NCBI GenBank assembly: GCA_041659505.1
Contig: JBAZYF010000004.1
Location: 14,922-78,921 of the forward strand
DNA from: Parcubacteria group bacterium
Lineage (GTDB): Bacteria; Patescibacteriota; Minisyncoccia; Moranbacterales; UBA2206
DNA: 64,000 nt
Direction of reading: 5' to 3'
Part shown: positions 7,515 through 59,325 of the stretch, in pieces
Position numbering within the stretch: position 1 is the stretch's first letter
Layout of the letters: each line of letters starts with the position of its first letter
The notes under the pieces: model-generated
What the model saw: the letters and a program-made list of their open reading frames with translations, nothing else
Told to the model about the DNA's origin: nothing
The model's database searches: none
Translations under genes and position numbers: made by a program

Positions 7515-8933
7515 CTATTCCACACTCAATCCGCTCGGCGCAGTTGGCGAAACAGTATCAGCCTCTCCTTGCAATGGATGCGGATAAGTATATGGAGCGT
7601 ATCCCAAATATGCATTATCTCCTGTCGCAGTAAAAACCATATTGCCTGCGTTAGGGTAAACACTGCCGTCAGTCGGATAGCTGGCTGATGCGCCATTCGC
7701 TCCGGTGAAAGTTTCTTTGCCATGTGTGCAGACATTGCCATATCCATCGGTGGTGTCACCTGCTGCGCATGGGGCGTGGAGGAAAAAATCGCGATCTTGC
7801 AAGAGTCCGGCACTAACATGAGGCGAAGCTTCAACATAGCCATACTCTCCATCATTAAAATCAGCTCCCCGATAAGTATTGTTCCACATAAAAGAATTAT
7901 GCACCTGGTCTTCGGCCGGCCAAGCTGTTCGCAGGATTGACCAATTATCGCTGTAATATTCCTCCTCTTGAAAATAGATCCTTGGATTATATTGAACCGT
8001 TCCCGTGATGGAATTATTAAAAATCAGATTGGCAGAGCCCCGAGTCAAAAACATAAAATCAATTCGCTTGCCATGCTCGACGTTATTATAGAACTCGATA
8101 ACTGATTGACCCCTTCTCTGACAAGAACCGGCTTCCCAATAGCCTGCTCCGCCACAGCCACCATCAGCACTGCCATGAGCCATAAAAGGTGTATAAGTGC
8201 CTACTTCATCCGGTATATCATCAGCATCAAACTCATTATGCCGAACAACCAGTTTTCCGCCATTGAAAGTCGCTATTTGCTCTTGCGTGTAGCCAAGAGT
8301 GTAACTGGCATTGGTAACAAAATGATTATCCTCAACATACAGAGCGTCGGATGTTCCAGCTGCTAGCGAGCTCCAAGATGCATCAGCATTGGTTCGACTG
8401 CCCGAACTAAACTCGACGCCAATTACCGGATTATAAAAATAGTTATGATCAATCAGTCCTTTTAGATGATCAAACAATATTGGCTTGCTGCCAAAGTGAA
8501 AAATATTATTATCAATTCTAATTTCACCACCAGAAATACCACCTTGCATTTCATGCACAAAAATAGCAGCTTCTGGAGTCGCGTTTACCATTTGAAAGGT
8601 AAAATCAGTGATGCGCACCAGACTGCTCGCAGTGAAACCGGTAATGTTGAAAAATCCGTTCGGCATTGTTCCGCCGGCGGTGAGCGTTGTTTCATTACCC
8701 AAAATAGTCACCGCCTTCCCTACTGTAAGCGCTGATGACCAAGTGCACGCTCCGCTGACTGGAAAAGCAATTGTGTCTCCAGTTGATGCGGCATTGTAAG
8801 CCGTTGTGACATCCGCCAAGGAGCAACTGCCGGCAGTATGCGTGTCTGCAAGAGAATTCCTTGCCACCCCAAACACCCCACAAAAAATGATTGCGAGAAA
8901 GAATATTTTTAGTTTTAGATTTTTGATTGACAT
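7515..8933 (-). CDS. secreted right-handed beta-helix (pectin-lyase-fold) protein, paralog A1
   Basis: Signal peptide MSIKNLKLKIFFLAIIFCGVFGVA. Repeated N-x-I/V-x-x-N beta-helix rungs. C-terminal YTPYTYPHPLQGEADTVSPTAPSGLSVE-stop. About 70% identical to the 17058..18566 paralog. Confidence 0.75.
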   Translation of the reverse strand: MSIKNLKLKIFFLAIIFCGVFGVARNSLADTHTAGSCSLADVTTAYNAASTGDTIAFPVSGACTWSSALTVGKAVTILGNETTLTAGGTMPNGFFNITGFTASSLVRITDFTFQMVNATPEAAIFVHEMQGGISGGEIRIDNNIFHFGSKPILFDHLKGLIDHNYFYNPVIGVEFSSGSRTNADASWSSLAAGTSDALYVEDNHFVTNASYTLGYTQEQIATFNGGKLVVRHNEFDADDIPDEVGTYTPFMAHGSADGGCGGAGYWEAGSCQRRGQSVIEFYNNVEHGKRIDFMFLTRGSANLIFNNSITGTVQYNPRIYFQEEEYYSDNWSILRTAWPAEDQVHNSFMWNNTYRGADFNDGEYGYVEASPHVSAGLLQDRDFFLHAPCAAGDTTDGYGNVCTHGKETFTGANGASASYPTDGSVYPNAGNMVFTATGDNAYLGYAPYTYPHPLQGEADTVSPTAPSGLSVE

Positions 8934-8947
8934 TTTTTAGTTAAAAA

Positions 8948-10708: not shown

Positions 10709-10725
10709 TTTTATTTTTACACTTT

Positions 10726-12264
10726 TTAATTTACCATGAGTCCTGTCGGAGAAGTCGGAGAAATAGTATCCTCTCCGCCTCTCAGTGGATGTGGGTAGGT
10801 ATATGGTTGATAATAGAGCGTCCAAGTATTCGGTGCTGTGCATTTATAAAATCTTCCGGCTTGTGTATATGTTTTCATATCACCCATTTCTTCAGGGACT
10901 TCAGAGCAAGGCGAGTAGGAAGTCTGCCAATAGCCGTCGCCAATTGCACAAGAACTTGTCGGGACAGCACTTCCACAATTGATCCCCTTTTGCACATTGC
11001 CATCTAAAGTATTGGGATTATAATTCCAATAATCCACATTTTCCGTAATAGCATATGGTGAACCGACTGCATAATGCGCGCAATTGTCTTCCGAGACATA
11101 GATCGGGCGATTAGTACCATTGCCCAAATTATTCCAGACATAAGTATTTTGGACATGCATCGAGTATCTAGTTCCAGTTCCATTCTGGCAACTATCGCAA
11201 GAATATTGATAAATATCAGGAAGTGGCATATGCCCCGTTCCTGTTACTACATTATTGAACATCAGCATCCAACTACCCCGCAAACGCATCCATTCTTGCG
11301 GCGTGCTATAAGGATTGTAAAGATTAGAATGGATATTCCCGTACCACTCTGTTTTTATCTGCGACCACTGCTCACAACTTCGTCTTTCTGGATAACAAGA
11401 ATTGGGAACATTAAAAGGCGCATAGCCACACTGCAAATTCACAAAGCTATCATTATCATCTGTTGTCATGCTTTGCAATCCATGCAAATCTTGCCACTGA
11501 TTTCCATCCAAAAGCACTTGTCCCAAATCATATGTGTTATAGCGAATAATCATACTTCCACCCTGTCCAGCTGAAAATGCACCAGCCGATGGAACCGTAG
11601 TTGCCGATATCACATTATCTTCAAAGAAAAAATTATTGCCCGTGCCATATTCCCGTTGCCCCAGATCCCAAGATTTTTCATTACGTCCCTCTTCCCGAAT
11701 GACCGTTTCGCATTCGATAAATGTGTTGGCATATGCCACGCCATAGACCGGTCCGTTCAAGTTGATTGTTTCCTGGCGTTCATTTTTGAAAATATTGTCA
11801 TGGATTTTTATATTCGACAACGGAGTTGTTCCCGAATTACTGACATCCAGCACTCCTTCGTAATAAGTTATGTTATTTGCATCAACAGTAAACCCACTAA
11901 ATTCAAATGGAGTGTCGTTGGAAATTGAAGTCGTGTCAGGTTCGTAAAGAATCGCTCCATATGGCGCAGCGCCAGCAAGAGTTATGCTTGTCGTTCCGCC
12001 TATGCCACCTTTCAAATTAATTCCCTTTTTCATACACAACGCTGTGTTACCAGCGCATCCTTGCACTCCGGCCGTCCAAGTTGCGCTTCCCGCACAAACT
12101 TCCACTGTATCTCCATAAGTTGCGGCGACCACAGCAGAAACCACAGCCTCCTGAGCCGGTCCCACGCAAGCCGCCCAAGATTTCTCCGCCATACCAAAAA
12201 TACCGCAAAAGATTATCGTGAGAAAAAATATTTTTAGTTTTAGGTTTTGGATTTTGAAATTCAT
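10726..12264 (-). CDS. secreted beta-helix protein, paralog B2
   Basis: Signal peptide MNFKIQNLKLKIFFLTIIFCGIFGMA. C-terminal YQPYTYPHPLRGGEDTISPTSPTGLMVN-stop. Confidence 0.75.
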   Translation of the reverse strand: MNFKIQNLKLKIFFLTIIFCGIFGMAEKSWAACVGPAQEAVVSAVVAATYGDTVEVCAGSATWTAGVQGCAGNTALCMKKGINLKGGIGGTTSITLAGAAPYGAILYEPDTTSISNDTPFEFSGFTVDANNITYYEGVLDVSNSGTTPLSNIKIHDNIFKNERQETINLNGPVYGVAYANTFIECETVIREEGRNEKSWDLGQREYGTGNNFFFEDNVISATTVPSAGAFSAGQGGSMIIRYNTYDLGQVLLDGNQWQDLHGLQSMTTDDNDSFVNLQCGYAPFNVPNSCYPERRSCEQWSQIKTEWYGNIHSNLYNPYSTPQEWMRLRGSWMLMFNNVVTGTGHMPLPDIYQYSCDSCQNGTGTRYSMHVQNTYVWNNLGNGTNRPIYVSEDNCAHYAVGSPYAITENVDYWNYNPNTLDGNVQKGINCGSAVPTSSCAIGDGYWQTSYSPCSEVPEEMGDMKTYTQAGRFYKCTAPNTWTLYYQPYTYPHPLRGGEDTISPTSPTGLMVN

Positions 12265-12297
12265 TTGGAATTTGTCCGCCAGCTGGCGGATTAAAAT

Positions 12298-13917
12298 TTA
12301 TTCCACTGCCAGCCCCGAAGGCACAGTAGGCGGCGTCGTGTCACTTTCTCCAGAAACATATTCATAGGCACCAATGTCCCAGAGACCAGAGGATGGACGA
12401 GCGACGCCGTTTTTGTCAAAACAAATCTCCGGTGTTTCTGAGCACAATGCAGTCAGATTAAACCCGGCGCTGATGGCAGCTGATCCGACGCCCAACGTAC
12501 CGTTCGCTTGAAGGTTGAGAGCGGAAACTGTCGGCTGACTACCATGCTGGTCAAAACCACATTCTCCGGCCGGATAGACGCCGACCGTATTCCAGTTACT
12601 AAAGGAATAGATGGCGCCGGTTTGATTGGACCAGTTATCAGCGTCTCCGCAATAGAAATTATAGTCAATAGCAGACAAGTCCGGCCAAGGAATTTCCGAT
12701 CCATAAAGAGAAATGAAAGTGCCGGCATCATTTCTGATCAAATTGTTTTTGACAATTGTTGTCCCATCGGGATCAGTAAGACTAATTCCTATTCCACCAA
12801 CCCCATTGTCAATTATGGTATTATTGACCACCAAAAGATTAGTAAGCAGGTCATGATTCCAAGCGCCTGTAACGATCCTCCCATTGGCGGGATAATTTAT
12901 CGGGTCATAAGACGAGATGAAAAGATTGTTGAATATCTTATACCCGTCCATGATACACCCCTCTCCGCCATCAGGATTTAAGAATATGCCAAAGCTAGTT
13001 GTGTGGCTATCTACTGACGGATATTTGGAATAATAACCGTCAAAATAGTTGTCATAGATTTTGACATTAGACGATGTGCCGCTACAGAAGGCGTGGATTC
13101 CGTTGTGATGATAGAAATTGGACGGCTCGTCCCAATTATAGCAATCGCTCATTTCATTATCGTGGATCGAGCTGTTGCTAGAAGCTCCGATTTTGATGTG
13201 CCGATTGATATATTGGCTGTAATTGTTTTTCACCTCTGTTCCGCTGCCAGAAATATAAACCGCGCATTCAGCGTTTTTGATCGTGTTACTGTAAATCGTA
13301 TTATTATCCCCTGTCGTTACGATTCCTGTCGCCGTATAAAAATCTCCGTCATCAGTATTGGCAATATGTATCTGAAGATTTTCGATGTCCATTTTAGTAA
13401 CGCTGCAGTGGGAGCCAGCTACATTAATACCTGTACCTTCTGATTGGTAGGCGCAAGTCCCGCCAGGACAAGCTTGGCCAATGGTACCATCCAGAGTCGC
13501 GACGATTTTCCCGTTCGTACCGCCATCTACATTAACATAGTTGTGAGAAATATAAATTGCTCCCGTGGCATTTGGCCAAGCCGGAGAAGTCAAAACAGCA
13601 TCCGTTTCGAATTTGACCGTGATCGGTGCGCCGAATGAGCCATCGCCAGCCGAAGTGATCGCGTTAGTATTATAGGGCTCCGTTATGGTGCCGCATATGT
13701 GCAGTGTATTCCCAGCGATCCAATTGGAAGCATTATTAATACCATAATAAGAATCACCCAAGTCATAGGCATTGGCACAGTCTGTCCCATTCTCACTGCC
13801 TGCTGCCGATGAAGCAAAATAAACATCCGCCGCGAAAGACTCTCCTGCCATTCCAAAAACCCCGCAAAAAAGAATTGCAAGAAAAATAATTTTAAATTTT
13901 AATTTGTAATTTTGCAT
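12298..13917 (-). CDS. secreted beta-helix (PbH1-repeat) protein, paralog C1
   Basis: Signal peptide. NNTIYSNTIKNAECAVYISGSGTEVKNN and LVVNNTIIDNGVGGIGISLTD parallel-beta-helix repeats. C-terminal GAYEYVSGESDTTPPTVPSGLAVE-stop. Confidence 0.75.
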   Translation of the reverse strand: MQNYKLKFKIIFLAILFCGVFGMAGESFAADVYFASSAAGSENGTDCANAYDLGDSYYGINNASNWIAGNTLHICGTITEPYNTNAITSAGDGSFGAPITVKFETDAVLTSPAWPNATGAIYISHNYVNVDGGTNGKIVATLDGTIGQACPGGTCAYQSEGTGINVAGSHCSVTKMDIENLQIHIANTDDGDFYTATGIVTTGDNNTIYSNTIKNAECAVYISGSGTEVKNNYSQYINRHIKIGASSNSSIHDNEMSDCYNWDEPSNFYHHNGIHAFCSGTSSNVKIYDNYFDGYYSKYPSVDSHTTSFGIFLNPDGGEGCIMDGYKIFNNLFISSYDPINYPANGRIVTGAWNHDLLTNLLVVNNTIIDNGVGGIGISLTDPDGTTIVKNNLIRNDAGTFISLYGSEIPWPDLSAIDYNFYCGDADNWSNQTGAIYSFSNWNTVGVYPAGECGFDQHGSQPTVSALNLQANGTLGVGSAAISAGFNLTALCSETPEICFDKNGVARPSSGLWDIGAYEYVSGESDTTPPTVPSGLAVE

Positions 13918-13928
13918 TTTTACACTTT

Positions 13929-15431
13929 TTAATTTACCATAAGTCCGCTAGGAATATTTGGCGGAGTAATGTCAATTTCTCCTTGCAACGGATGTGGATA
14001 GGCGTAAGGAATATAATTCCAACTTGTTTTCGTTCCACAATCAATCGACGGATCGTGATAACAAAAATCTCTATCTTGAGCAAACCACGCACTGTCCCCT
14101 GCGATAGTCGCAGAATCATTACACGCGCCACCCGTCGCACAAGTTGCCGTAGTCCCATTATTATACCAATAGACTGGGGAGGGATATTGATTCCTTCCTC
14201 CAGCTCCATACTCCTGACCCCAGCCCGTCTGATCCCGACAAGGATAGCCATTTCCTCCACTGCTTCCATCTACATTATCCACAGTAGCAAGGCAAATTGC
14301 GCTCCCATCTGTACCGATAGGACAATCCGAATTACTCGTACAAGCTACTATGCACGATCCACTTGCACTTCCATAACAGTCTCCATCGCCTGAGCATACT
14401 GCATGGTTTCCACCGCTGCAATGCATAAAAGTAGGAGTATTACAAGCTCTTACTATTGCTCCTGTGCAAGCCGCACCCAAAAATCCAGACCCAACAGTTG
14501 CGCGCCAAACTTGGGCGAAACCCGGAGTCCAAAAATCGCCAGTAATCGTGTTGTCGTACACAATCGCACCCCCGCCCCGCAGAGCAACAGCTGTTAAATT
14601 ATTACAATTACCCCCGACACAATTTATTGTATTGTTGTAGACTTCTGTCATTCTTTGACCGCGCGCAGCAGGAGTGCTCCCCGTATCATGCATCTGGATA
14701 TCACCACCGTTAATAATATTATGCCTCACAACCAGCCTGACGCCATGCTCAGTGTCTGTCAGATCACCGTTAGCACCACCTGTCCAAGTGAAGGTCGAGT
14801 CTTCGATAAAAATAGCCCAATCAGTGCCATACTGATCTGCACTTTGCCAAGTAGAATTATTGCCAGCTATCTTAAGAAGCCTTGACCATTGATTGCTTAG
14901 AAGGGTGATATGATCAAACAACGCCTTTGGATGAGATGGGATGAGCCACCATGGATCAATCGTGAAAGCGTGTCCATTAATGTTGGTAAATTTTAGATGA
15001 TCCGCTCGAAGAGAATTCCAGATTGTGCTTTCATCCCCACTCAGGCGGATAAGTTGTTCTTCTAGCCCTCCACCGCCACCCACAGTTCCTGCAAACCCCA
15101 GATCGGTAATTCTAAAATTCGCCCCACTTGTAAGCGAAACGCTGAACAAGGTTGTATTATTAGCCGTCAAGGTTGTGGCATCGCTTCCATTGCCTTTTAT
15201 TGTTATCCCCTTTGTCACCGAGACATAAGACGACCATGTCGCCGATGTGCAGTTAAGATAGACCGTATCACCAGCAACAGCAGCATCAACAGCAGACTGA
15301 ACATTCGCTTGGGAACAGTTTGTCACATTAATTATCGTAGCTTGAGAATTTTCCACCAATCCAAAAATCCCGCCAAAGATAATTGCCAACAAAAATATTT
15401 TTAGTTTTAAATTGTCATTTCGCATTTTCAT
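13929..15431 (-). CDS. secreted beta-helix protein, paralog D
   Basis: Signal peptide MKMRNDNLKLKIFLLAIIFGGIFGLV. Cys/Gly-rich middle. C-terminal YIPYAYPHPLQGEIDITPPNIPSGLMVN-stop. Confidence 0.7.
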   Translation of the reverse strand: MKMRNDNLKLKIFLLAIIFGGIFGLVENSQATIINVTNCSQANVQSAVDAAVAGDTVYLNCTSATWSSYVSVTKGITIKGNGSDATTLTANNTTLFSVSLTSGANFRITDLGFAGTVGGGGGLEEQLIRLSGDESTIWNSLRADHLKFTNINGHAFTIDPWWLIPSHPKALFDHITLLSNQWSRLLKIAGNNSTWQSADQYGTDWAIFIEDSTFTWTGGANGDLTDTEHGVRLVVRHNIINGGDIQMHDTGSTPAARGQRMTEVYNNTINCVGGNCNNLTAVALRGGGAIVYDNTITGDFWTPGFAQVWRATVGSGFLGAACTGAIVRACNTPTFMHCSGGNHAVCSGDGDCYGSASGSCIVACTSNSDCPIGTDGSAICLATVDNVDGSSGGNGYPCRDQTGWGQEYGAGGRNQYPSPVYWYNNGTTATCATGGACNDSATIAGDSAWFAQDRDFCYHDPSIDCGTKTSWNYIPYAYPHPLQGEIDITPPNIPSGLMVN

Positions 15432-15442
15432 TTTTACACTTT

Positions 15443-16990
15443 TTAATCTACCATAAGTCCGCTCGGTGCTCCGGGCGCAGTCATATCACTTTCTCCAGAA
15501 ACATATTCATAGGCGCCAATGTCCCAGGCACTGCCTTGCGGACGAGGGACACCTAAATTGTCTGCTGTGAAATAGGAGGACAGGGAAACGCCGTGATCCT
15601 TAGCAACCACATCTGTTGCAGTCGACGCATAATTCGCATCCAGTGTTGGCTGACTGACTGTGCTGTGCGCATCAAAATTGTAGCCATGACTGGCGGTAGC
15701 TGCTTTCCAACCAGCAAAATCATATTGCGCCCAACTACCGTAAGAAAAAACTCCATCTCCGTAATATACATTATAATCACACTGCGCTACTGCATCATAA
15801 TCATAAGGTTCCACAACAAAGGAGGTGTTGTAAATCAGATTATTTTTAATAATATGCCCGATGTCCATCCCTCCACCCCAACCACCGACTTGCAATGACA
15901 ATCCCCCATCTAAGCCGATGAAAGTATTATTTGCCACAACGGCATAATTACTGCCCTTTAAATTCATCAATCCATTTCCGCAAGCACCATCAGGATCAAC
16001 TTCTTTGACTAAAACATTATTATAAATCTCGGGAGAATAAATATAGCCTTCCAGAAAAACCAATGCGGTTGAATTTGTTCCACACATTCCTGAAAAGTTA
16101 TTTGAATATATTTCCAATCCCTCTAGTCTCGATCCCTCATGCACCGCCCAAGCATGAATTAGGTTTGTGTGAATTTCCGGCGCACCGCTCCATTTGCGAC
16201 TTTTATGGAAAGTGTTGTCGTGAATTTGCACATCAGACATTGTTTCGTTGGTATTTTGCGAACCGACCGTCACACAACTGTGTCCGCAATCATCACAAAC
16301 ATTTCCGCTGATTTCTGCACCACTCGAACCGGCGCGATAGCCAATATACATTCCATTAGATGCGTCTTTCAAAATATTGTCCTGTAACGTTAGGTTGGTA
16401 GAAATTCCATCAAACCCGATGCCGATACAAATATTATTGGCATCCGTTCCTTCCACTCTTTCATACAACGGATAAACGGCTAAATTTTTAACTGTAACAT
16501 TCGAACCGTTATTGAAAAATACTCCGGCTATGTCGTACTGAAAAGTTCTGGCCGTCCCGTTGTCCGTTGCTTCAATAAGGCCGTTGGTTCCGCCATCAAT
16601 TGTGATGTAGGATTTGTTACTTCCATAAATCGCCGCATCCCCATTGCTTCCACTTTGGTACCAATGATTTTTGGACATTTTCGCGCCAGTTTCAAAGAAT
16701 ATGGTAATGGGACTCTCTGACGTTCCCGATCCTTGGATTGTGATTGGGGATGAAAAAGTTCCGCAAAGATGCGCGGTGTCTCCAGCACTGATTTTATTTG
16801 TGCCACTTCCCCAATTGCCAGAAGTGTTGAGCCATGAGACCGAATGCGCATTCACGCAATCCGCGCCAGTATCGGAGCCTGATACATTTTGAGCAATATA
16901 CAACTCTTCCGCGTGAGAATCCTCCATCAATCCAAAAATTCCGCAAAAAAGCACTACCAGAAAAAACATTTTTAGTTTTAGCTTTTGCAT
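15443..16990 (-). CDS. secreted beta-helix protein, paralog C2 (start at internal MQKLKLKMFF; the ORF track extends it to 17041)
   Basis: Signal peptide. Beta-helix rungs. C-terminal GAYEYVSGESDMTAPGAPSGLMVD-stop, pairing with C1. Confidence 0.75.
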   Translation of the reverse strand: MQKLKLKMFFLVVLFCGIFGLMEDSHAEELYIAQNVSGSDTGADCVNAHSVSWLNTSGNWGSGTNKISAGDTAHLCGTFSSPITIQGSGTSESPITIFFETGAKMSKNHWYQSGSNGDAAIYGSNKSYITIDGGTNGLIEATDNGTARTFQYDIAGVFFNNGSNVTVKNLAVYPLYERVEGTDANNICIGIGFDGISTNLTLQDNILKDASNGMYIGYRAGSSGAEISGNVCDDCGHSCVTVGSQNTNETMSDVQIHDNTFHKSRKWSGAPEIHTNLIHAWAVHEGSRLEGLEIYSNNFSGMCGTNSTALVFLEGYIYSPEIYNNVLVKEVDPDGACGNGLMNLKGSNYAVVANNTFIGLDGGLSLQVGGWGGGMDIGHIIKNNLIYNTSFVVEPYDYDAVAQCDYNVYYGDGVFSYGSWAQYDFAGWKAATASHGYNFDAHSTVSQPTLDANYASTATDVVAKDHGVSLSSYFTADNLGVPRPQGSAWDIGAYEYVSGESDMTAPGAPSGLMVD

Positions 16991-17057
16991 TTTATTAAAA
17001 AATAAATTGCTACCAGTGTTACTTACCTTGTTACGTAACAAGGTACTTACTCCAGTT

Positions 17058-18566
17058 TTAATCTACGCTCAATCCGCTCGGTGAAACTGGCGGAGTGATA
17101 TCAGTTTCTCCTTGTAATGGATGCGGATAAATATATGGGGTGTAATCAACGTAAGCGTTATCGCCCGTAGCCGAAAAAATCATATCACCTGCGTTAGGAT
17201 AGACACTATCATCGGTCGGATAACTAGCTGATGCGCCATTTTGCCCAATGAATGTTTCCTTACCGTGAGTGCAAACATTTCCATGTCCATCAGTCGTGTC
17301 TCCTGCTGCGCAGGGAGCGTGGAGGAAATAGTCGCGATCCTGGCGCAGAAACGGGTTGGATGTCGTGACAAGTTCATCACCACAAGTACCAGTTCCACTT
17401 CCCGTGCAACAAGCCATCGGAACACCATTGCCGGTACAGTCATAGTTGGTCGGGTATGTCCCGATAGAGCCAACCAGGCCATCATTAAAATCATGCCCGG
17501 CATAAATATTATCCCAAACAAAAGTGTTATGCACCTGATCTTCTGCTGGCCAAGCAGTTCGATGTATTGACCAATTATCACTAATATATTCTTCTTCGGA
17601 AAAATATATCCGCGGATTATTACTTACTATACTTGAAATGGAGTTATTATAAACTAAATTTGCTGAACCACGGGAGATAAACATAAAATCGATCCGTTTT
17701 CCATGTTCGATATTATTATAAAACTCAATGACAGATTGGCCTCTTCGCTGGCAAGAACTGGCTTCCCAATAGCCTGCTCCACCACAACCACCATCCGCGC
17801 TTCCGTGCGCCATGAAAGGCGTGCAAGTTTCCAGGCCATCCGGCACATTATCACAATCAAACTCATTATACCTTACAACTAATTTTCCACCATTATTTGT
17901 GCCGATTTGTTCTTGAGTATACCCCAGAGTATAATTTGCATCAGAAACAAAATGATTGTCTTCGATAAAAATTGCGTCCACAGTGCCAGCTGCCAGCGAA
18001 ACCCAAGCGGCATCTGCATTGGTTCTACTACCGGCGCTTATCACAACTCCTTGGATTGAATTATGAAAGTAGTTATGATCAATTAGGCCTTTTATATGAT
18101 CAAACACTATGGCCTTGTTCCCATAGTAAAAAGTATTATTGTCGATTCTAATATTTCCCCCATCTACTCCGCCCTGCATATCGTGCACATATACAGCGGT
18201 GGCAGGAGTCCAATCCATCATTTGAAAAGTAAAGCCACTGACACGAACAAGGCTACTGGCGGTAAAACCGGTAATGTTGAAAAAGCCATTACTCATAGCG
18301 CCGTCAGAGATTAAATTCGTATTGTTACCTGAAATTGTCAAAGCCTTGCTGACCGTAAACGCTGATGACCAAGTACACACCGTAAATGCAGGAAAAACAA
18401 TCGTGTCTCCACTCGAAGCAGCATCGTAGGCTGACTGGGCGTTTTCCAATGAGCAGTCCCCGTCACCATAATCCGCAATATTTATAGTTGCCGCAAAAGA
18501 ATTTTTTACTAATCCGAAAACCCCGTAGAAAAAAATTATGAGAAAAAAGATTTTTAGTTTTTGCAT
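17058..18566 (-). CDS. secreted beta-helix protein, paralog A2
   Basis: Signal peptide MQKLKIFFLIIFFYGVFGLV. C-terminal YTPYIYPHPLQGETDITPPVSPSGLSVD-stop. Close paralog of A1. Confidence 0.75.
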   Translation of the reverse strand: MQKLKIFFLIIFFYGVFGLVKNSFAATINIADYGDGDCSLENAQSAYDAASSGDTIVFPAFTVCTWSSAFTVSKALTISGNNTNLISDGAMSNGFFNITGFTASSLVRVSGFTFQMMDWTPATAVYVHDMQGGVDGGNIRIDNNTFYYGNKAIVFDHIKGLIDHNYFHNSIQGVVISAGSRTNADAAWVSLAAGTVDAIFIEDNHFVSDANYTLGYTQEQIGTNNGGKLVVRYNEFDCDNVPDGLETCTPFMAHGSADGGCGGAGYWEASSCQRRGQSVIEFYNNIEHGKRIDFMFISRGSANLVYNNSISSIVSNNPRIYFSEEEYISDNWSIHRTAWPAEDQVHNTFVWDNIYAGHDFNDGLVGSIGTYPTNYDCTGNGVPMACCTGSGTGTCGDELVTTSNPFLRQDRDYFLHAPCAAGDTTDGHGNVCTHGKETFIGQNGASASYPTDDSVYPNAGDMIFSATGDNAYVDYTPYIYPHPLQGETDITPPVSPSGLSVD

Positions 18567-18602
18567 TTTTTATACCTAAAAAACAGTTTATAAACTATCC
18601 TA

Positions 18603-27340: not shown

Positions 27341-27509
27341 TGTCATTCCCGCGAAGGCGGGAATCCAGGTTCCACTAGTTATAAACTCTATAAAATCGAG
27401 ATACAAGTCTTGGTGCCTTCCCGTTTCAGATAGTCTTGAATTTTAATAATTCGTTTTTTCTTAATTTTGAATCTGAGGTGCCTAGATTCCCGCCTTCGCG
27501 GGAATGACA
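27341..27509. repeat. MITE-like palindromic element, TGTCATTCCC family, copy 1 (TIR TGTCATTCCCGCGAAGGCGGGAATCCAGG)
   Basis: Ends are reverse complements of each other. Each end is itself a hairpin ATTCCCGC-GAAG-GCGGGAAT. About 85% identical to 54157..54324. Confidence 0.8.
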
Positions 27510-31904: not shown

Positions 31905-32084
31905 TGAATGACTTACGCATTTGCCCAAGTCAGCCGTATTGGCTAAAAAATCCTGTTTGAGAATGCCTTTTTTCTTCAAAATTTTCCATTGGTTGCCGCT
32001 TCTTGAGGGGAAATTTTAAAAAGAAAAAAGAGCGTTCGAGTAATTTTTTTAGCCAATACGGCTGTGAGGTGAAATGCATAACTC
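31905..32084. repeat. about 180-bp nested-palindrome element, efflux-operon family copy 1 (abuts the RND pump stop codon)
   Basis: AGTCAGCCGTATTGGCTAAAAAA ... TTCTTCAAAATTTTCCA ... GGAAATTTTAAAAAGAAAAAAG ... TTTTTTAGCCAATACGGCTGTGAGG. Outer and inner inverted repeats. Confidence 0.8.
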
Positions 32085-35381: not shown

Positions 35382-35404
35382 ATTATTTTAATTTCACGAT
35401 TTAA

Positions 35405-35585
35405 GCGTTTACTCGAGTCAGCCGTATTTTTCTAAAAAAATCCTGCCTGAGAAGGCCTTTTTTCTTCAAAATTTTCCATTGGTTGCCTTTGATAGAGGGA
35501 AAATTTTGAAGAAAAAAGAGCCTTCGAGTTATTTTTTTAGAAAAATACCGGCTGCGAGGTGAAAAGCGTAACTCCTGAGTTTTGT
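35405..35585. repeat. nested-palindrome element, efflux-operon family copy 2 (between adaptor and pump genes)
   Basis: Same architecture and about 85% identity to copy 1. Confidence 0.8.
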
Positions 35586-36766: not shown

Positions 36767-36779
36767 AATGATTGAGGCT

Positions 36780-36957
36780 TACGCACTTACCCGAGTCAGC
36801 CGTATTTTCTAAAAAAATACTGTCTGAGAATGCCTTTTTTCTTCAAAATTTTCCACCGGATGCCGTTGATTGAGGGAAAGTTTTGAAAAGAAAAAAGAGC
36901 GTTCGAGTCATTTTTTTAGAAAATACGATTGCGAGGTTAAATGAGTAAATTCCGATG
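36780..36957. repeat. nested-palindrome element, efflux-operon family copy 3 (abuts the csoR stop codon)
   Basis: Same architecture. The right TIR is partly degraded (GAAAATACGATTGCGAGG). Confidence 0.75.
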
Positions 36958-54156: not shown

Positions 54157-54324
54157 TGTCATTCCCACGGAGGCGGGAATCCAGGTTCCACTAATTATAA
54201 ACCATAGAAAATTGAGCTACGAGCCTGAAAACTCTCTACCTCAAAAAGTCTTGAATTTTAATAATTCGTTTTCTCTTTATTTTTAGCTTGAGGTGCCTGG
54301 ATCCCCGCCTTCGCGGGGATGACA
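54157..54324. repeat. MITE-like palindromic element, TGTCATTCCC family, copy 2
   Basis: TGTCATTCCCACGGAGGCGGGAATCCAGGTTCCACTAATTATAAAC ... GAGGTGCCTGGATCCCCGCCTTCGCGGGGATGACA. Homologous along its whole length to 27341..27509. Confidence 0.8.
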
Positions 54325-54367: not shown

Positions 54368-57148
54368 TCAAGCTGATTTTCCACCGTTTTGAGCATCCTC
54401 TTTCCGCACTTCTTCCCAAAAAAAGACCGCCAAAAATGAACCTAGAACAACCAGCCAGTCTATCCAATCAATCGGAAGCATCCGCAGATATGCTTGGCAA
54501 AATGGCAAATACATAAACACCAACAATATCACAACCGAAATCAAAACCGCTCCAATCGCGTACCTATTTTTGAAAAATCCCAGCCGAAAAGGTGAAAGCG
54601 TTTCACTGCGCGCCTGCAAAAGATTGGCCATCTGCGTCATTGAAAGGACGGCATAAGCGGCTGTAGTTGATTTGAGATAAAGTATACTATCAACGGAAAA
54701 GCTCTGACCAAAATGCCAGCCACCGCGAAGCATCGACCAAAGAAATGCCACCACCGCACCCGTTGCCATAATCAGCCCAAGGTAAATTATCCGGCGAAAT
54801 CCGCCAAAACTCATCACACTATTTCTAGAGTTCAAGTTTGTCTTTGAAGCACCAGGCTCTTCCGGCTCAAGACCGAGCGCAAAAGAAGGAAAAATATCTG
54901 TCCCTAAATCAATTGCTAAAATCTGCACGGCTGAAATTGGCGAGGGAATTTGCAAGAGCACGCCAAAAATTACCGTGAAAAGTTCACTGGCGTTCGATGT
55001 GAAAACATAGTGCACAAATTTTTTGAGATTTTGAAAAACGGTCCGTCCCGTCCGCACCCCTTTCACGATCGATGCAAAATTGTCGTCCATTAGGATCATG
55101 CTGGCCGCTTCTTTGGAAACATCCGTTCCGATAATGCCCATCGCCACGCCGATATCGGCTTTTTTCAGTGCCGGTGCATCATTCACGCCGTCCCCTGTCA
55201 TCGCAATCACTTCGCCATTTTTTTTGAGCACGGTCGCAATCCGCAATTTTTGTTCCGGCGCGATCCGCGCAAAAACACAGGCGCCATTTTTGATTCTTTG
55301 ATATAATATTTTATCAGAAAGCTCGTCAAGCTGCTTGCCATTAATGACCAGGCTAGCTCCCTTGGGATCGGAGCCAGGCTCCGGTTTTATCAGACCGACA
55401 TTTTCCGCAATTGCGCGTGCGGTTATTTCATAATCACCAGTAATCATAACAACATCAATCCCCAAATCTCGACACTCCGCAATCGCCTTGCCAACATTGG
55501 CACGTGGCGGATCAATCATTGCCATCATCCCGACCCAGACTAGGCCTTTTTCCGCTTCGACAAGATATTTATCTTGCGAAAATCCATCCAGCTCGCGATA
55601 GGCAAAAGCTAGGACGCGCAGAGCATCCTTGGACATCTGGTCGTATAACGCCTTAGCTTTATTTTTTTCCTCAGCGTTAAAGGGCAAGATCCGCTCACCA
55701 ACCTTGGTGAAATTACAAAGGTCGATCATTACGTCTGGCGAACCCTTGACGAAAGAAATCGTTTTAGCGTTGCGGTAAATCACACTCATCCGCATCCGCT
55801 CTGAGGAAAAAGGATTTTCTGTAATTTTTTTCTCTCCACGCTCATAGAATTTTTTAGCCTTGTTATATTTTTGCCCCGCCACAATGATCGCCCCCTCCGT
55901 CGGATCACCGATTATTTTATAATTTTTCTTGTCCGTCGTCAGACTGGCGTCATTGCACAACGAACCGACACGAAAAAGCAGCTCCAAATTCGCCACCTCT
56001 TTCGGATTTATTTTTGCTTCGTTACGATAAAAATTTCCCACCGGTTCATAGCCAGTACCATCGACCTCCAAAACTTCACCATTAATCACAATTTTTGTCA
56101 CAGACAATTCGTTGCGGGTAATCGTACCGGTCTTATCTGTACAAATGAGCGAAACGGAACCTAGTGTCTCCACGGCATTCAATTTTTTCGCCAGGACATT
56201 CTCATTGATAAGCCGCTTCATCCCAAAAGACAAGGCGACAGAGATAGCAGCAGGAAGACCTTCCGGCACGACCGAAACGGACAGCGCTAAAGCAAACAGA
56301 AAATTTTGATAGAGCGACATCTTGAAATATTGACCCGCAATGAGCACAACAATGCCGATAAAAACCGAGAGGACCGTCACATCCCGGCCGAGCGTGCGCA
56401 TTTGTTTCTGGAGTGGCGTCGCGTCAGATGCCACCTCTTGCGTCAAATGAGCAATCCGACCTAATTCCGTATCCATCCCCGTCCCCGTCACCACAAAACG
56501 CGCTTCACCGGTCGCCACTGTTTCTCCCATAAACACCATATTATCAATATCTGTAAAAGCGATGCCGGTTTCTTTGATGATTTTTGCTTCCTTCCTTTTT
56601 GGTTTTGATTCGCCGGTGAAGATAAAACTATTAACCTTAAGATCATAGCTTTCTAAAAGATATCCGTCTGCTGCGATACTGTCTCCGGCAGCGATGAAAA
56701 TGACATCACCGGGCACGACCAATTTCGTGTCGAGTTGTTTTTTCTCTCCATCTCGAAACACCAGCGCATAACTGGCTGTTAATTTTTTGATGCTCTCCAG
56801 GACGCGATCGGCCTTGAATTCCTGAAAAAATCCGACCGTCGCGTTAAGCAAAACAATGATGCCGATAATCGTTGCGTCGCGATATTCTGAGAACGCCAAA
56901 GCCAACCCAGATGCAACCAGAAGGATCCAAACCAGCGCATCATCAAACTGGGCGAAAATTAATTTCAACCATTTCCAGTTCTGCTTTTTAATCAACTTAT
57001 TTTCACCAAATTCTTGGAGCTTCTGTTTCGCTTCATCTACACTCAAGCCTTCTAGACTTGAACCAAACTTTTTCAAGATTTCTTCCGGCGAAAGATTATA
57101 AATTTGTTTTTTGTTTTTTCCGCCCAAGGCGGATGCGTGTTTTGGCAT
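54368..57148 (-). CDS. cation-transporting P-type ATPase, type IIA (Ca2+-ATPase-like)
   Basis: DKTGTITRNEL, TGDGVNDAPALKKADIGVAMG, 10 TM helices, N-terminal cation-ATPase domain. Confidence 0.88.
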   Translation of the reverse strand: MPKHASALGGKNKKQIYNLSPEEILKKFGSSLEGLSVDEAKQKLQEFGENKLIKKQNWKWLKLIFAQFDDALVWILLVASGLALAFSEYRDATIIGIIVLLNATVGFFQEFKADRVLESIKKLTASYALVFRDGEKKQLDTKLVVPGDVIFIAAGDSIAADGYLLESYDLKVNSFIFTGESKPKRKEAKIIKETGIAFTDIDNMVFMGETVATGEARFVVTGTGMDTELGRIAHLTQEVASDATPLQKQMRTLGRDVTVLSVFIGIVVLIAGQYFKMSLYQNFLFALALSVSVVPEGLPAAISVALSFGMKRLINENVLAKKLNAVETLGSVSLICTDKTGTITRNELSVTKIVINGEVLEVDGTGYEPVGNFYRNEAKINPKEVANLELLFRVGSLCNDASLTTDKKNYKIIGDPTEGAIIVAGQKYNKAKKFYERGEKKITENPFSSERMRMSVIYRNAKTISFVKGSPDVMIDLCNFTKVGERILPFNAEEKNKAKALYDQMSKDALRVLAFAYRELDGFSQDKYLVEAEKGLVWVGMMAMIDPPRANVGKAIAECRDLGIDVVMITGDYEITARAIAENVGLIKPEPGSDPKGASLVINGKQLDELSDKILYQRIKNGACVFARIAPEQKLRIATVLKKNGEVIAMTGDGVNDAPALKKADIGVAMGIIGTDVSKEAASMILMDDNFASIVKGVRTGRTVFQNLKKFVHYVFTSNASELFTVIFGVLLQIPSPISAVQILAIDLGTDIFPSFALGLEPEEPGASKTNLNSRNSVMSFGGFRRIIYLGLIMATGAVVAFLWSMLRGGWHFGQSFSVDSILYLKSTTAAYAVLSMTQMANLLQARSETLSPFRLGFFKNRYAIGAVLISVVILLVFMYLPFCQAYLRMLPIDWIDWLVVLGSFLAVFFWEEVRKEDAQNGGKSA

Positions 57149-57160
57149 TTTATTTTAAAA

Positions 57161-57847
57161 CTATTCCAAAATATATTTTTCTAATTCTTTTTTCTCCCTG
57201 AAATAATCGATGTTATTTTGCATAAACTTTTCATATTCCAATGGATCATTATCAAACTGACCGAGGATTGTTTCTTTCACGCAGAGTTTCCCATCCCTCT
57301 TTCCAGTATAGTCTAAATAACTAGAACATGGCCAGTCTTTTTCAGGATAGTTATGAATCGCATGATTAGCGTTTACATAAACCGAGAGATGCAAAAGATA
57401 TTCATTAGAATCGATATGGATGGATTTGAATGGTCCTTGAAAAAGAGAACCGGAACGGGCGTGTTTTTTATTGAAATATGCTGTATACCCAGAGCTAATT
57501 TTCAACATGAATTTACTTATTCCGTTTTTTTGTAGCTGCCTCAAAACAAAATGGTAATGGTTTGGATTAAGACAGTAATAAATTATTTCTACTAATTTTT
57601 TGATTTCGGGATTGTTAACGGCATTAGGGGCTAAGTCCCCTATAGGGGACTTAGCCCCTTGAATTGCCACTAACTTTTCTCGATAATTTTTTTCATACAA
57701 ACTTCCAATCGCTTCAATACGATTAAATTCATTCATACCCACAATAAACCGAGTATAATCTCCATCACTCAAGAACACCTCCCGCTTATCCACTCCGCGA
57801 TTGTAGATATGATAATATTCGCCATTGGCAAATTCTGTTTTTCGCAT
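57161..57847 (-). mobile_element. IS200-like Y1 (HuH) transposase, REP-associated tyrosine transposase (RAYT)-like, carrying an in-frame 32-bp palindrome
   Basis: YHIYNRGVDKREVF N-terminus. HuH motif NHYHFVLRQ. Downstream catalytic region YLLHLSVYVNANHAIHNY. No flanking IS ends detected, so the gene appears to stand alone. Confidence 0.7.
57627..57658. repeat. perfect palindrome GGGGCTAAGTCCCC-TATA-GGGGACTTAGCCCC inside the RAYT ORF (encodes GAKSPIGDLAPN in frame)
   Basis: Seen directly in the sequence. Both arms are exact reverse complements. Confidence 0.85.
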
Positions 57848-57861
57848 GTTGCTTCAATATG

Positions 57862-59325
57862 TCAGTAATTACGCATCCAATCACTGGGGTTTAAAAGATT
57901 TGGTTTTGGCTCTGTATTTATTTCATCATGTCTCGTGGAAATACTTATGCCAGCACAATCTAATTGGACGACAAAATTAAGAAAGTTGCCATTATCGTAT
58001 TTGCTTAAAACTTGTTTTTTTGCTTCTGGGATTTTGGTAATCGAAAGGTCTATCATATAAATCATTCTACTGGGAAGTGCTGTTATGAATTCTTTTGATG
58101 GCACCTCGAATATTTCCATTGTTTTTATACCTACTTCAGCACGTTCAAAAACAATTCTCAACCAGTCTACCCGCTTATTAATCATTTCTCTTAACTGTCG
58201 CGTCTTAGGATTAACAGTGGATTCGCTACTATCGGAAAAATAGCCATTTAAAAAAGTTTGCACCCTAAATAATTCATGCAAATAACCTTGACTGAAATTA
58301 GACCAGATATTACGTCGCAACTCTTCACAATAATCATCATATTGATTATGATTTTTTTCTATTTCTGATATTCTTCCTACTACACGCTCCTGATAAGCGT
58401 CCTCCCATCTATTCATCTTAATATAATCCAAAATATCATTTCGCCCCATATTTTGTAACTCTTGAATAAGGCGCCTCGCTTCATCTTTATCCTCGGGGGC
58501 TGGCGGAATCGCTTCATACTTTTTTTTGGGCTTATCTCGATATGCCTGCTCTTTCTCTAGAATCCGAATTTTGTCTGTGACGACTCTCAATTGAGGCTTC
58601 AATTTATTACATTCATTACTTATTTCCCCAATCTTCACAGATAACTCAGAAGACGTTTGAGAAAGTTCTGCACATTTTTGTTTAAAACTATTTTCTTTTT
58701 GTTCCTCTGTGATACCCAATTCTCGTTCTTGAGCTATTGTTGTGATAAGCGGCTCTTCTTGAGTTTTGTGTGCTAATTTTATCTCGCTTAATTTATTTTC
58801 ATAGGACTGCAGTAATTTAGAATCTTCTTCTGAAAATTTTTTAAACTCAGTCAAAGATTCATCGCGTTGAGCTTTTTCTTTTTTTCTTTTCCAAAATTTG
58901 AGACGAGAAATTTTCATCGACTGAAGCTCTTCTTTTTTGCCCAAGCGCTCCTCTGTTCTAATCCTTGTTTGCTGTATTTTATTCTCGATCGCCAAAATAT
59001 CCTCTGCTTGTTTTGCTCGCAGTTGAGAAAGTTGCTCTTCCAGCTGGCTAGTATTTAAAGTATGGGACTCTCTGGATTTAGCCACTGAATCTTTCACATA
59101 ACTCCATTCTATTATAAGCCGTTGTTGTTGTTTTTCTGTTTCACGCTTCTGCTTATTAAGTGTCTCAACCTGCAGACGCATTTCTTCTATCACTGGCATA
59201 ATTTGCTTTTCCCTACCACGCAAATCATCCAGCATGCGATTTAATTCGTCTTGTGTATATTTCTCAGGAGTAAACTCTTGACTTATTTGTTCCTGAGGTT
59301 TTTGTTTTGGTTCTTTTATATCCAT
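57862..59325 (-). CDS. hypothetical coiled-coil protein with a globular C-terminal domain
   Basis: About 280 aa of K/E/Q-rich heptad-like sequence, followed by an about 200-aa C-terminal domain of unknown family. Confidence 0.4.
   Translation of the reverse strand: MDIKEPKQKPQEQISQEFTPEKYTQDELNRMLDDLRGREKQIMPVIEEMRLQVETLNKQKRETEKQQQRLIIEWSYVKDSVAKSRESHTLNTSQLEEQLSQLRAKQAEDILAIENKIQQTRIRTEERLGKKEELQSMKISRLKFWKRKKEKAQRDESLTEFKKFSEEDSKLLQSYENKLSEIKLAHKTQEEPLITTIAQERELGITEEQKENSFKQKCAELSQTSSELSVKIGEISNECNKLKPQLRVVTDKIRILEKEQAYRDKPKKKYEAIPPAPEDKDEARRLIQELQNMGRNDILDYIKMNRWEDAYQERVVGRISEIEKNHNQYDDYCEELRRNIWSNFSQGYLHELFRVQTFLNGYFSDSSESTVNPKTRQLREMINKRVDWLRIVFERAEVGIKTMEIFEVPSKEFITALPSRMIYMIDLSITKIPEAKKQVLSKYDNGNFLNFVVQLDCAGISISTRHDEINTEPKPNLLNPSDWMRNY

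What the first reader, a model, noticed from the sequence alone, without database searches (positions are those of the whole stretch)
57161..57847. Stand-alone IS200-like Y1 (RAYT-type) transposase carrying an in-frame 32-bp perfect palindrome: candidate mobilizer of the local palindromic elements
The ORF has the Y1/HuH transposase hallmarks: YHIYNRG, the HuH motif NHYHFVLRQ, and a catalytic Tyr region. It has no recognizable IS ends, which is typical of domesticated REP-associated tyrosine transposases that mobilize REP or REPIN hairpin elements. Such elements are abundant in this window. Inside the gene, GGGGCTAAGTCCCC-TATA-GGGGACTTAGCCCC (57627..57658) is inserted in frame. It adds about 12 residues (GAKSPIGDLAPN) within the region preceding the HuH motif. 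This may be a protein-coding-compatible palindromic insertion (compare Rickettsia RPEs) or a self-recognition hairpin.
Basis: partly seen in the sequence, partly recalled or inferred. Interest (0 to 1): 0.6.

Follow-up and report, generated by a model that had tools for sequence, protein, structure and literature searches.

The report
Hairpin-carrying RAYT-like transposase gene in CPR bacterium
The gene encodes an intact, chromosomally fixed Y1/HUH (RAYT-like) enzyme of candidate-phyla-radiation bacteria, and its in-frame palindrome is not a one-off insertion but the family's own REP-like hairpin, which sits at the same place and in the same reading frame in most family members, also brackets the gene in most relatives, and is scattered through their genomes, even in frame inside essential genes.

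Summary
The ORF (57161-57847, minus strand, 228 aa) and the palindrome are real. The palindrome is a perfect 34-mer (57626-57659), read in frame as GAKSPIGDLAP.

The protein passes Pfam Y1_Tnp. It has the HuH motif (H97/H99) and an invariant Tyr157. Its predicted fold is closest to E. coli TnpA-REP (4er8).

It belongs to a large family (>4,800 proteins; all those named come from Moranbacteria/Parcubacteria). In this lineage the gene keeps a fixed place, murG-murC-Y1-ATPase-murB, so it is domesticated and not a hopping IS.

New finding: in 80 independently sampled family loci, the same locus-specific hairpin occurs just upstream (58 loci), at site 1 (58; the window's site), at site 2 (31) and just downstream (49).
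- The unit is a fixed-length 23-nt hairpin, ACTTRG-N11-CYAAGT, with compensatory variation.
- It is always read in one frame (59/59).
- Cognate hairpins are also dispersed at low copy.
- In relatives, the window-type doublet lies in frame inside AtpD, RsmH, RlmN, LigA, PolA, RecG and UvrD.

The window's gene keeps only site 1. No other copy occurs in the 64 kb. The window's two MITEs are unrelated.

Verdict: a RAYT/REP-like system with conserved intragenic hairpins, a new variant of a known kind. That the enzyme acts on the hairpins is inferred, not shown.

The parts
57161..57847 (-). Y1/HUH (RAYT-like) transposase-family gene, 228 aa, intact
   Evidence: ORF. Pfam Y1_Tnp 28.3 bits, above cut-off 23. 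4,827 homologs; all those named are from Moranbacteria/Parcubacteria. All 19 invariant family residues are present. AF2 model pLDDT 87; best PDB match 4er8 TnpA-REP.
57626..57659 (.). Site-1 hairpin: perfect 34-bp palindrome (doublet form of the family's REP-like unit), read in frame as residues 63-74 (Q)GAKSPIGDLAP
   Evidence: Same site and frame as the hairpins in 58 of 80 family loci. Same core is dispersed in related genomes. Encoded residues are disordered in the model.
57794..57814 (-). N-terminal motif YHIYNRG (residues 12-18), first beta-strand of the HUH fold
   Evidence: Y12, H13, N16, R17 and G18 are invariant or nearly invariant. Strand E11-18 in the model.
57551..57559 (-). HuH motif, codons H97-Y98-H99 (CAT TAC CAT)
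   Evidence: Read directly from the sequence. H97 and H99 are invariant in 120 sequences. On strand E97-104 of the model.
57377..57379 (-). Codon of Tyr157, the presumed catalytic tyrosine (helix 148-159)
   Evidence: Y157 is invariant. It lies within the stretch matched by Pfam Y1_Tnp (residues 83-160). Helix in the model. The catalytic role is inferred from the IS200/RAYT family, not tested.
57320..57358 (-). Site 2 (residues 164-176): the second conserved hairpin position of the family, empty in this gene
   Evidence: 31 of 80 family loci carry a cognate hairpin here. No hairpin in the window at this place.

Best explanation
The gene is an intact member of a large clade of Y1/HUH single-strand-DNA enzymes found in CPR bacteria (Moranbacteria/Parcubacteria). 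This clade behaves like RAYTs: a vertically inherited chromosomal gene tied to its own family of REP-like hairpins.

The 34-bp palindrome is the 'site 1' copy of that cognate hairpin, in its doublet (REPIN-like) form.

Shown:
- The family's hairpin is a fixed-length 23-nt unit, ACTTRG-N11-CYAAGT. Its foot is conserved and its tip varies with strictly Watson-Crick compensation.
- The same locus-specific variant occurs upstream, at two fixed in-frame positions inside the ORF, and downstream.
- It is also scattered at low copy through the genome, including in frame inside essential genes.
- The internal copies fall in surface loops and use a reading frame free of stop codons.

Inferred:
- The Y1 protein binds these hairpins when the DNA is single-stranded. 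It nicks next to the conserved foot through Tyr157, with HuH-bound metal, and rejoins the ends.
- This copies or exchanges hairpin units between sites, most efficiently at its own gene.
- That activity keeps the four gene-associated copies identical to each other while the sequence turns over between lineages, and now and then seeds new copies elsewhere.
- The window's gene is a pared-down state: flanking copies and site 2 are lost, site 1 is kept and still a perfect palindrome.
For: Family and fold.

Fixed locus and vertical descent:
- murB-Y1-murC-murG in L036.
- murG-murC-Y1 in L115 and L116, and Y1-ATPase adjacency in six further loci down to about 50% identity.
- L194 has the same synteny. 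Neighbours confirmed by Pfam.

Hairpins in and around the gene:
- 62 of 80 unbiased loci have a palindrome with a stem of at least 11 bp inside the gene, only at residues ~55-86 or ~164-176.
- With relaxed detection: upstream 58, site 1 58, site 2 31, downstream 49; only 5 loci have none.
- Same core within a locus, different between loci.
- Cognate hairpin density is 2.94/kb at the gene, 0.027/kb more than 200 bp away, and 0.0004/kb for heterologous cores.

Defined element:
- 138 of 142 units span exactly 21 nt between foot motifs, including non-coding copies (42/42 upstream, 29/31 downstream).
- 98% of cells paired; 89 compensated cells against 26 in shuffles (0/500); 3 G-U in 450 cells.
- Frame identical in 59/59.

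Turnover in place:
- Orthologous site-1 palindromes in the syntenic locus all differ (window, L036, L194, L115/L128, L116).
- Window and L036 differ only by paired, symmetric changes.

Dispersal of the window-type palindrome:
- 111 genomic stretches; up to 11 exact-core copies per MAG; 12 of 83 lie within 120 bp of a Y1 gene.
- In-frame copies in AtpD, RsmH, RlmN, LigA, RecG, TatD, PolA and UvrD, shown to be extra residues against solved homologs for AtpD and RsmH.

Breakpoints at the hairpin: L071 is truncated exactly at site 1. L194 has a 10-bp duplication inside site 1 that shifts the frame.
Against: - No biochemical evidence that this protein binds or cuts these hairpins. The link rests on association and on analogy with TnpA-REP and IS608 TnpA.
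- In this window the hairpin is single-copy, and the gene lacks flanking copies. Activity in this genome is therefore unproven, and the genome outside the 64 kb was not available.
- Copy numbers in relatives (about 10 exact copies per MAG, about 27 per Mb extrapolated) are low for a REP family.
- Conserved position and frame could equally reflect a cis-regulatory role.
- Hairpins were found with a palindrome finder, so the high percentage paired is partly built in.
- Loop orientation is not fixed, unlike the ends of IS200/IS605 elements.
- One MAG (CAIPMZ) has 11 copies, none of them next to a detected Y1 gene.
- The sequence profile does not reach any solved Y1 protein. The NCBI RAYT model is far below its cut-off.
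Confidence: 0.6

Rival explanations
1. The hairpins in and around the gene are mainly cis-regulatory. Extruded in single-stranded DNA during transcription, or folded in the mRNA, they are bound by the Y1 protein or slow the ribosome or RNA polymerase. This throttles expression of a potentially harmful nuclease. Their conservation reflects that role, not mobility. This rival does not exclude the main explanation.
For: Position and frame are conserved across the family (59/59). One copy lies in the 5' leader (-20 to -60) and one right after the stop codon. The window keeps a perfect site-1 palindrome although its flanking copies are gone. IS200 is known to control its transposase through hairpins, and REP hairpins have been proposed to down-regulate RAYT expression (discussion in PMC3733652).
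Against: There is no sign of an mRNA hairpin: in-gene mismatches are A.C 9 against G.T 5, and only 3 G-U in 450 cells. Regulation alone does not explain why the same hairpin is dispersed elsewhere, including inside other genes. It also does not explain why non-coding and coding copies share one fixed length.
Confidence: 0.2
2. One reading: a small mobile palindrome (RPE-like) happened to insert in frame into this particular gene, which otherwise has no hairpin.
For: The peptide lies in a hypervariable, disordered linker. The same palindrome does insert in frame into other genes of relatives. The window's linker is about 15 residues longer than the shortest ones in the family.
Against: 58 of 80 independently sampled family members have a hairpin at this site, always in the same frame. 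This includes all syntenic orthologs examined. The site is therefore ancestral. What changes is the hairpin's sequence and whether it is a singlet or a doublet.
Confidence: 0.05
3. The gene is the transposase of a complete, active IS200-type insertion sequence, with the upstream and downstream hairpins as its left and right ends.
For: Most family loci have matching hairpins on both sides of the gene at fixed distances, as in IS200/IS605. Some contigs carry two or three family genes (L118, L002).
Against: In the window there are no flanking hairpins, and the gene abuts its neighbours. The locus is conserved between genomes whose Y1 proteins are only 50-70% identical. Paralogs on one contig are divergent, not recent copies. 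Loop orientation of the flanking copies is not fixed.
Confidence: 0.05
4. The Y1 protein mobilises the MITE-like elements of this window (27341-27509 and 54157-54324).
For: One MITE copy lies 2.8 kb from the gene. Each MITE end contains a small GC-rich hairpin. Some RAYT relatives (TIRYTs) are associated with terminal inverted repeats (PMC3733652).
Against: The MITE hairpin is unrelated to the gene's own hairpin. It occurs in none of 196 loci that carry family genes or palindromes. In relatives, a Y1 gene's internal hairpin matches the copies that bracket it, so the internal copy marks the cognate sequence.
Confidence: 0.03

Closest known systems
RAYT / REP-REPIN systems ('REPtrons'): E. coli TnpA-REP (PDB 4er8), Pseudomonas RAYTs (Nunvar 2010; Bertels & Rainey 2011, PMC3116915; Ton-Hoang 2012; Messing 2012, PMC3479197; Di Nocera 2013, PMC3733652)
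   Same: - Y1/HUH fold with one catalytic Tyr; best structural match.
- Chromosomal, syntenic, apparently vertically inherited gene.
- In most of the family the gene is bracketed by short hairpins that are also dispersed in the genome, as singlets and as inverted doublets.
- Hairpin sequence is specific to the lineage.
- REPs inside ORFs, often in replication and repair genes, were already reported (PMC3733652).
   Different: - The cognate hairpin is also built into the enzyme's own ORF, at two conserved positions in one fixed frame. I found no description of this in the papers read.
- The unit is a perfect 23-nt hairpin with a paired ACTTRG foot, not a GTAG tag next to the stem.
- Copy number is low.
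- The host is CPR.
- The protein scores 25 bits against a cut-off of 80 on NCBI's RAYT model, and the family profile finds no solved Y1 protein by sequence.
- The window's own gene has no flanking copies.
IS200/IS605-family TnpA (IS608, ISDra2, IS200; PDB 2vjv, 2xm3, 2f4f)
   Same: Same fold and the same Pfam family. The gene lies between two similar subterminal hairpins in most family loci. The presumed chemistry is the same: a single-strand nick made through a 5'-phosphotyrosine link.
   Different: About 80 residues longer, with an extra C-terminal helical region. Not multi-copy, and fixed in the chromosome. Hairpins are perfect palindromes of either orientation. Extra copies lie inside the ORF. 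No TnpB partner is present.
Rickettsia palindromic elements (RPEs) and other intragenic REPs
   Same: Palindromic repeats are tolerated in frame inside essential protein genes, adding a short surface peptide.
   Different: Much shorter (32-46 bp, about 11 codons, against roughly 100-150 bp for RPE-1). Here a candidate enzyme is clearly associated. Sequence relatedness to RPEs was not tested.

Membership tests
Pfam PF01797 Y1_Tnp (IS200-like Y1 transposases) | Score at or above the curated gathering threshold | tested here: met
   28.3 bits against a cut-off of 23, residues 83-160.
HUH Y1 endonuclease superfamily | HuH metal-binding motif on a beta-strand, plus one catalytic Tyr on the following helix | tested here: met
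   H97-Y-H99 and Y157 are invariant in 120 sequences. Strand 97-104 and helix 148-159 in the model. Fold matches 4er8, 2vjv and 2xm3. Catalysis itself is not testable here.
RAYT (NCBIfam NF047646, REP-associated tyrosine transposase, equivalog) | Score at or above the curated cut-off | tested here: not met
   25 bits against a cut-off of 80.
RAYT / REPtron | Single-copy, vertically inherited chromosomal gene, not a multi-copy IS | tested here: inconclusive
   One copy in the 64-kb window. Synteny is conserved across genomes down to about 50% identity. Whole-genome copy number was not available, and some relatives' contigs carry 2-3 divergent paralogs.
RAYT / REPtron | Gene flanked by its REP/REPIN hairpins | tested here: not met
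   The window has no flanking family hairpin. The feature is met in most of the family: upstream in 58 of 80 loci, downstream in 49 of 80.
RAYT / REPtron | The same hairpin dispersed in many copies through the genome | tested here: inconclusive
   The window has a single copy in 64 kb. Relatives have up to 11 exact-core copies per MAG, and 0.027/kb against 0.0004/kb for the control: dispersed, but at low copy.
GTAG-tagged REPs (Di Nocera 2013) | GTAG tetranucleotide at one end of the stem-loop | tested here: not met
   The window hairpin has CTAAG/CTTAG arms and the family foot is ACTTRG. Only a subset (L121, L125, L149, L188) starts with GTAG.
IS200/IS605 insertion sequence | Transposase between left- and right-end subterminal hairpins, with the unit present at several sites | tested here: not met
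   No flanking hairpins, and 12-14 bp to the neighbouring genes. The locus is fixed and syntenic.
RPE-like in-frame palindromic insertions | A repeat copy inside an ORF that adds residues absent from orthologs without breaking the frame | tested here: met
   Met in relatives: AtpD and RsmH alignments show the peptide opposite gaps in solved homologs, and eight housekeeping genes are affected. In the Y1 gene itself the hairpin is ancestral, not a new insertion.

The most novel reading that the evidence does not exclude
The Y1 gene and its substrate form one co-evolving unit. The enzyme uses the conserved foot (ACTTRG/CYAAGT) as a cut-and-rejoin site and swaps the variable 11-nt tip between hairpin sites. 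This keeps the four copies in and around its own gene identical, so the gene's substrate specificity is written inside its own coding sequence.

If that is right, the several thousand family members would form a natural library of enzyme-hairpin pairs whose specificity can be read straight from the gene. The same activity would be a generator of short in-frame peptide insertions in essential proteins of CPR bacteria.
Probability: 0.3. Interest if true: 0.8.

Novelty: new variant of a known kind. Interest (0 to 1): 0.63.

Why it matters
How RAYTs recognise and move REP/REPIN hairpins, and how enzyme and hairpin specificity co-evolve, is still largely inferred from a few proteobacterial examples.

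In this family each gene carries its presumed substrate inside its own ORF, and in most members also on both sides. Several thousand natural variants are available. Specificity pairs can therefore be read from sequence and tested directly, and they could supply orthogonal HUH-tag/ssDNA pairs for bioconjugation.

The result also extends RAYT/REP-like systems to the streamlined genomes of CPR bacteria. It shows that their essential enzymes (ATP synthase beta, DNA ligase, Pol I, RecG, UvrD, RsmH, RlmN) tolerate 11-codon hairpin-encoded insertions. That is a source of protein variation and a likely cause of assembly breaks and frameshifts in these genomes.

For the window itself the message is more modest: an intact, domesticated Y1 gene that retains one perfect internal hairpin.

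Tried and rejected
- **Rfam** scan of 56900-58100 at E <= 1: only weak chance-level matches.
- **PDB by sequence:** the single protein and the 120-sequence profile found no Y1 protein. Only the fold search made the link.
- **Viral contigs:** the palindrome pattern gave 2 hits, so this is not a phage feature.
- **MITE link:** the MITE end hairpin is absent from all 196 loci. Rejected.
- **mRNA-structure reading:** no excess of G.T over A.C mismatches and almost no G-U pairs. Not supported, though DNA-level regulation is not excluded.
- **Weak flanking hairpins in the window:** only TCCGCC-CAA-GGCGGA at 57119-57133, inside the first codons of the ATPase ORF. Its relation to the family's downstream hairpin could not be shown.
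- **Fixed loop orientation** (as for IS200/IS605 ends): not found.
- **Literature searches** for CPR/Patescibacteria together with REP, RAYT or in-frame palindromes found no relevant paper. One search failed on syntax. The library lacks most subscription journals, so absence is not proof of novelty.
- **Whole-genome copy number** of the Y1 gene and of the hairpin in the window's own organism could not be obtained.

Full report
**1. The observation**

The minus-strand ORF 57161..57847 encodes 228 aa. It carries YHIYNRG (residues 12-18), NHYHFVLRQ (96-104) and Tyr157 in LSVYVNANH. The palindrome is real and slightly longer than reported: a perfect 17+17 palindrome at 57626..57659. It is by far the longest perfect palindrome in the window. 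As single-stranded DNA it folds at -21 kcal/mol, z = -8.2. It is read in frame as (Q)GAKSPIGDLAP(N).

The side claim that such elements abound in the window does not hold. The arm occurs nowhere else even with two mismatches. Hairpins with the family motif are at chance level. The only repeated palindrome-bearing element is a two-copy MITE with unrelated terminal repeats.

**2. The protein**

- Pfam Y1_Tnp is passed: 28.3 bits against a cut-off of 23, residues 83-160.
- NCBI's RAYT equivalog model is far from passed: 25 bits against 80.
- A search of 5.8 billion proteins found 4,827 relatives of 210-250 aa. All those with a source name come from Moranbacteria or the Parcubacteria group.
- In an alignment of 120 relatives, H13, R17, K21, R22, C92, H97, H99, Q104, Y157, N161 and H165 are invariant, and the window's protein has all of them.
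- The AlphaFold model is confident (pLDDT 87, pTM 0.83). Its only disordered stretch, residues 65-78, is the palindrome-encoded peptide.
- The best match among solved structures is 4er8, E. coli TnpA-REP bound to a REP hairpin (E = 8e-6). IS608 and ISDra2 TnpA follow.
- Sequence searches of the PDB find none of these.

**3. A fixed chromosomal gene**

The neighbours are MurB, a P-type ATPase, an unknown 487-aa protein, MurC and MurG. The same order recurs elsewhere:
- murB-Y1-murC-murG in Moranbacteria UBA2206, L036.
- murG-murC-Y1 in L115 and L116, and Y1-ATPase in L121, L125, L128, L135, L149 and L185, where Y1 identity falls to about 50%.
- murG-murC-HD-Y1-ATPase in L194.

The gene abuts its neighbours (12 and 14 bp) and has no end hairpins. 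This is the behaviour of a domesticated gene, not a hopping IS.

**4. The palindrome is a family feature**

The protein alignment first showed that related peptides recur at the same place in homologs (TKSPIGDLVP, SKSPIGLLEP, AKPPIGGLAS and others). Sometimes they occur a second time in another loop.

I then examined 80 loci fetched by protein similarity alone.
- 62 have a palindrome with a stem of at least 11 bp inside the gene. All map to residues ~55-86 (site 1, the window's site) or ~164-176 (site 2).
- With relaxed detection, the same locus-specific hairpin is found upstream at -20 to -60 (58 loci), at site 1 (58), at site 2 (31) and downstream at +1 to +48 (49). Only five loci have none.
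- Cognate hairpin density is 2.94/kb at the gene, 0.027/kb more than 200 bp away, and 0.0004/kb for heterologous cores.

**5. The element**

- In 138 of 142 units the distance between the foot motif CTT[A/G]G and its mirror image is exactly 21 nt. This holds for non-coding copies too (upstream 42/42, downstream 29/31), so reading frame does not impose it.
- The unit is ACTTRG-N11-CYAAGT.
- On one unit per locus (48 units, 45 distinct), the foot is nearly invariant and positions 7-10 co-vary. 98% of cells are paired. 89 cells are compensated on both sides against 26 ± 6 in shuffles (0 of 500 reach the observed value). The slid controls collapse. Only 3 of 450 cells are G-U.
- Caveat: the units were picked with a palindrome finder, so the percentage paired is partly built in. 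The diversity of compensated variants is not.
- In-gene mismatches show no wobble bias. The structure therefore looks like a DNA-level one.
- All 59 in-gene units are read in the same frame, giving x-L-G-xxxx-K-L/S. Three-quarters have a CTTGG foot, which is open in all three frames. The positions are therefore ancestral, not repeated random hits.

**6. The window's clade**

Here the hairpin is a doublet, GGG[A/G]CTAAGTCCCC-NNNN-GGGGACTTAG[T/C]CCC. It amounts to two units joined head to head, like a REPIN. Close relatives carry singlets or doublets upstream and downstream as well (L028, L051, L065, L087, L101). The window and L036 keep only site 1.

Within the orthologous syntenic locus the site-1 palindromes all differ (window, L036, L194, L115/L128, L116). 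The window and L036 differ only by paired, symmetric changes. The hairpin therefore turns over in place while remaining a perfect palindrome. That argues for active maintenance and against a decaying relic.

**7. Dispersal**

An exact-pattern scan of 185,579 species genomes found 111 stretches.
- In CPR MAGs there are up to 11 exact-core copies per genome.
- 12 of 83 copies lie within 120 bp of a Y1 gene, a region that makes up roughly 0.1% of a 1-Mb genome.
- Many copies lie inside long ORFs and are read as G-T/A-KSPxGDL-V/A-P. With a 4-nt loop this is the only frame without a stop.
- The hosts include AtpD, RsmH, RlmN, LigA, RecG, TatD, PolA and UvrD.
- Against solved homologs the peptide aligns to gaps in AtpD and RsmH.

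Intragenic REPs, often in replication and repair genes, were already reported in other phyla (PMC3733652).

**8. The hairpin as a weak point**

- In L071 the Y1 frame starts exactly at site 1, with unrelated sequence upstream.
- In L194 a 10-bp tandem duplication inside the palindrome splits the gene into two ORFs.

**9. Mechanism**

Shown: the association, architecture, covariation, dispersal and tolerance in frame described above.

Inferred, from the chemistry of TnpA-REP and IS608 TnpA: the protein binds the hairpin in single-stranded DNA, nicks near the conserved foot through Tyr157, and rejoins. This copies or exchanges units, most efficiently at its own gene. That would explain why the four gene-associated copies stay identical while the sequence changes between lineages.

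A regulatory role for the gene-associated copies is a live, non-exclusive rival. The IS200-type reading, the one-off-insertion reading and the MITE-mobiliser reading are each contradicted by tests reported above.

**10. Novelty**

The closest known system is the RAYT/REP 'REPtron'. The differences are:
- conserved hairpins inside the enzyme's ORF;
- a paired ACTTRG foot in place of a GTAG tag;
- low copy number;
- a CPR host;
- failure of the curated RAYT model.

I found no description of these points in the RAYT papers I read or in full-text searches. The library is incomplete, so this is not proof. I rate it a new variant of a known kind, and of moderate to high interest as a family-level finding. 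For this window's gene alone the result is more ordinary: a domesticated Y1 gene with one retained cognate hairpin.

Noticed in passing
window 27341-27509 and 54157-54324: Two copies (85-87% alike) of a MITE-like element of about 170 bp. Its 25-bp terminal inverted repeats (TGTCATTCCCGCGAAGGCGGGAATC) each contain a small hairpin. The second copy lies between murB and the P-type ATPase. The hairpin is absent from all 196 fetched loci.
   Followed up: partly
window 7500-18600: Seven tandem paralogous units of about 1.5-1.8 kb (repeat families D1, D5 and D7). This looks like a tandem array of related genes.
   Followed up: no
window 31912-32081, 35400-35571, 36778-36948: Three copies of a 140-170 bp repeat, 72-87% alike (families D6 and D15).
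   Followed up: no
window 57862-59325 (-): A 487-aa ORF rich in charged, coiled-coil-like sequence, with no Pfam hit. It sits between murC and the Y1 gene. It is absent from that position in the syntenic loci L036, L115 and L116.
   Followed up: partly
window 57119-57133: A small hairpin, TCCGCC-CAA-GGCGGA, inside the first codons of the ATPase ORF, 28 nt after the Y1 stop codon. Relatives have their downstream hairpin at this place. A relationship could not be shown.
   Followed up: partly
L003, L009, L015, L017, L030, L034, L035, L039, L040, L044, L058, L075, L082, L111 and others: The same 10-nt arms (CTAAGTCCCC/GGGGACTTAG), with 7-8-nt loops and C/G-run flanks, are dispersed in filamentous cyanobacteria (Phormidium, Phormidesmis, Leptolyngbya) and in Poribacteria. 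This may be a separate REP family. No homolog of the window's Y1 protein was found in those slices.
   Followed up: no
L002 6359-9276: A family Y1 gene with three internal palindromes lies next to a diversity-generating retroelement (bAvd plus reverse transcriptase). A cognate palindrome sits just upstream of the reverse transcriptase gene, and a second, shorter Y1 gene lies 2.8 kb further on.
   Followed up: no
window residues 40-62 (57662-57730) compared with L194 9784-10014: The stretch upstream of site 1 exists in two unrelated forms across the family: EFNRxxxIGSLYEK and LLNDExDGLMxxWR. These forms do not follow the similarity of the rest of the protein. The window and L194 are 82% identical after site 1 but unrelated in residues 40-62. 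This suggests cassette-like exchange around the hairpin.
   Followed up: partly
L194 9950-10010; L071 570-610: Damage at the hairpin. In L194 a 10-bp tandem duplication (TCCGAGAGTT) inside site 1 shifts the Y1 frame. In L071 the gene is truncated exactly at site 1.
   Followed up: yes
L121, L125, L149, L188 (hairpins around the Y1 gene): In a subset of the family the hairpin foot begins with GTAG (for example GTAGACAT-CGA-ATGTCTAC). This recalls the GTAG-tagged REP superfamily.
   Followed up: no
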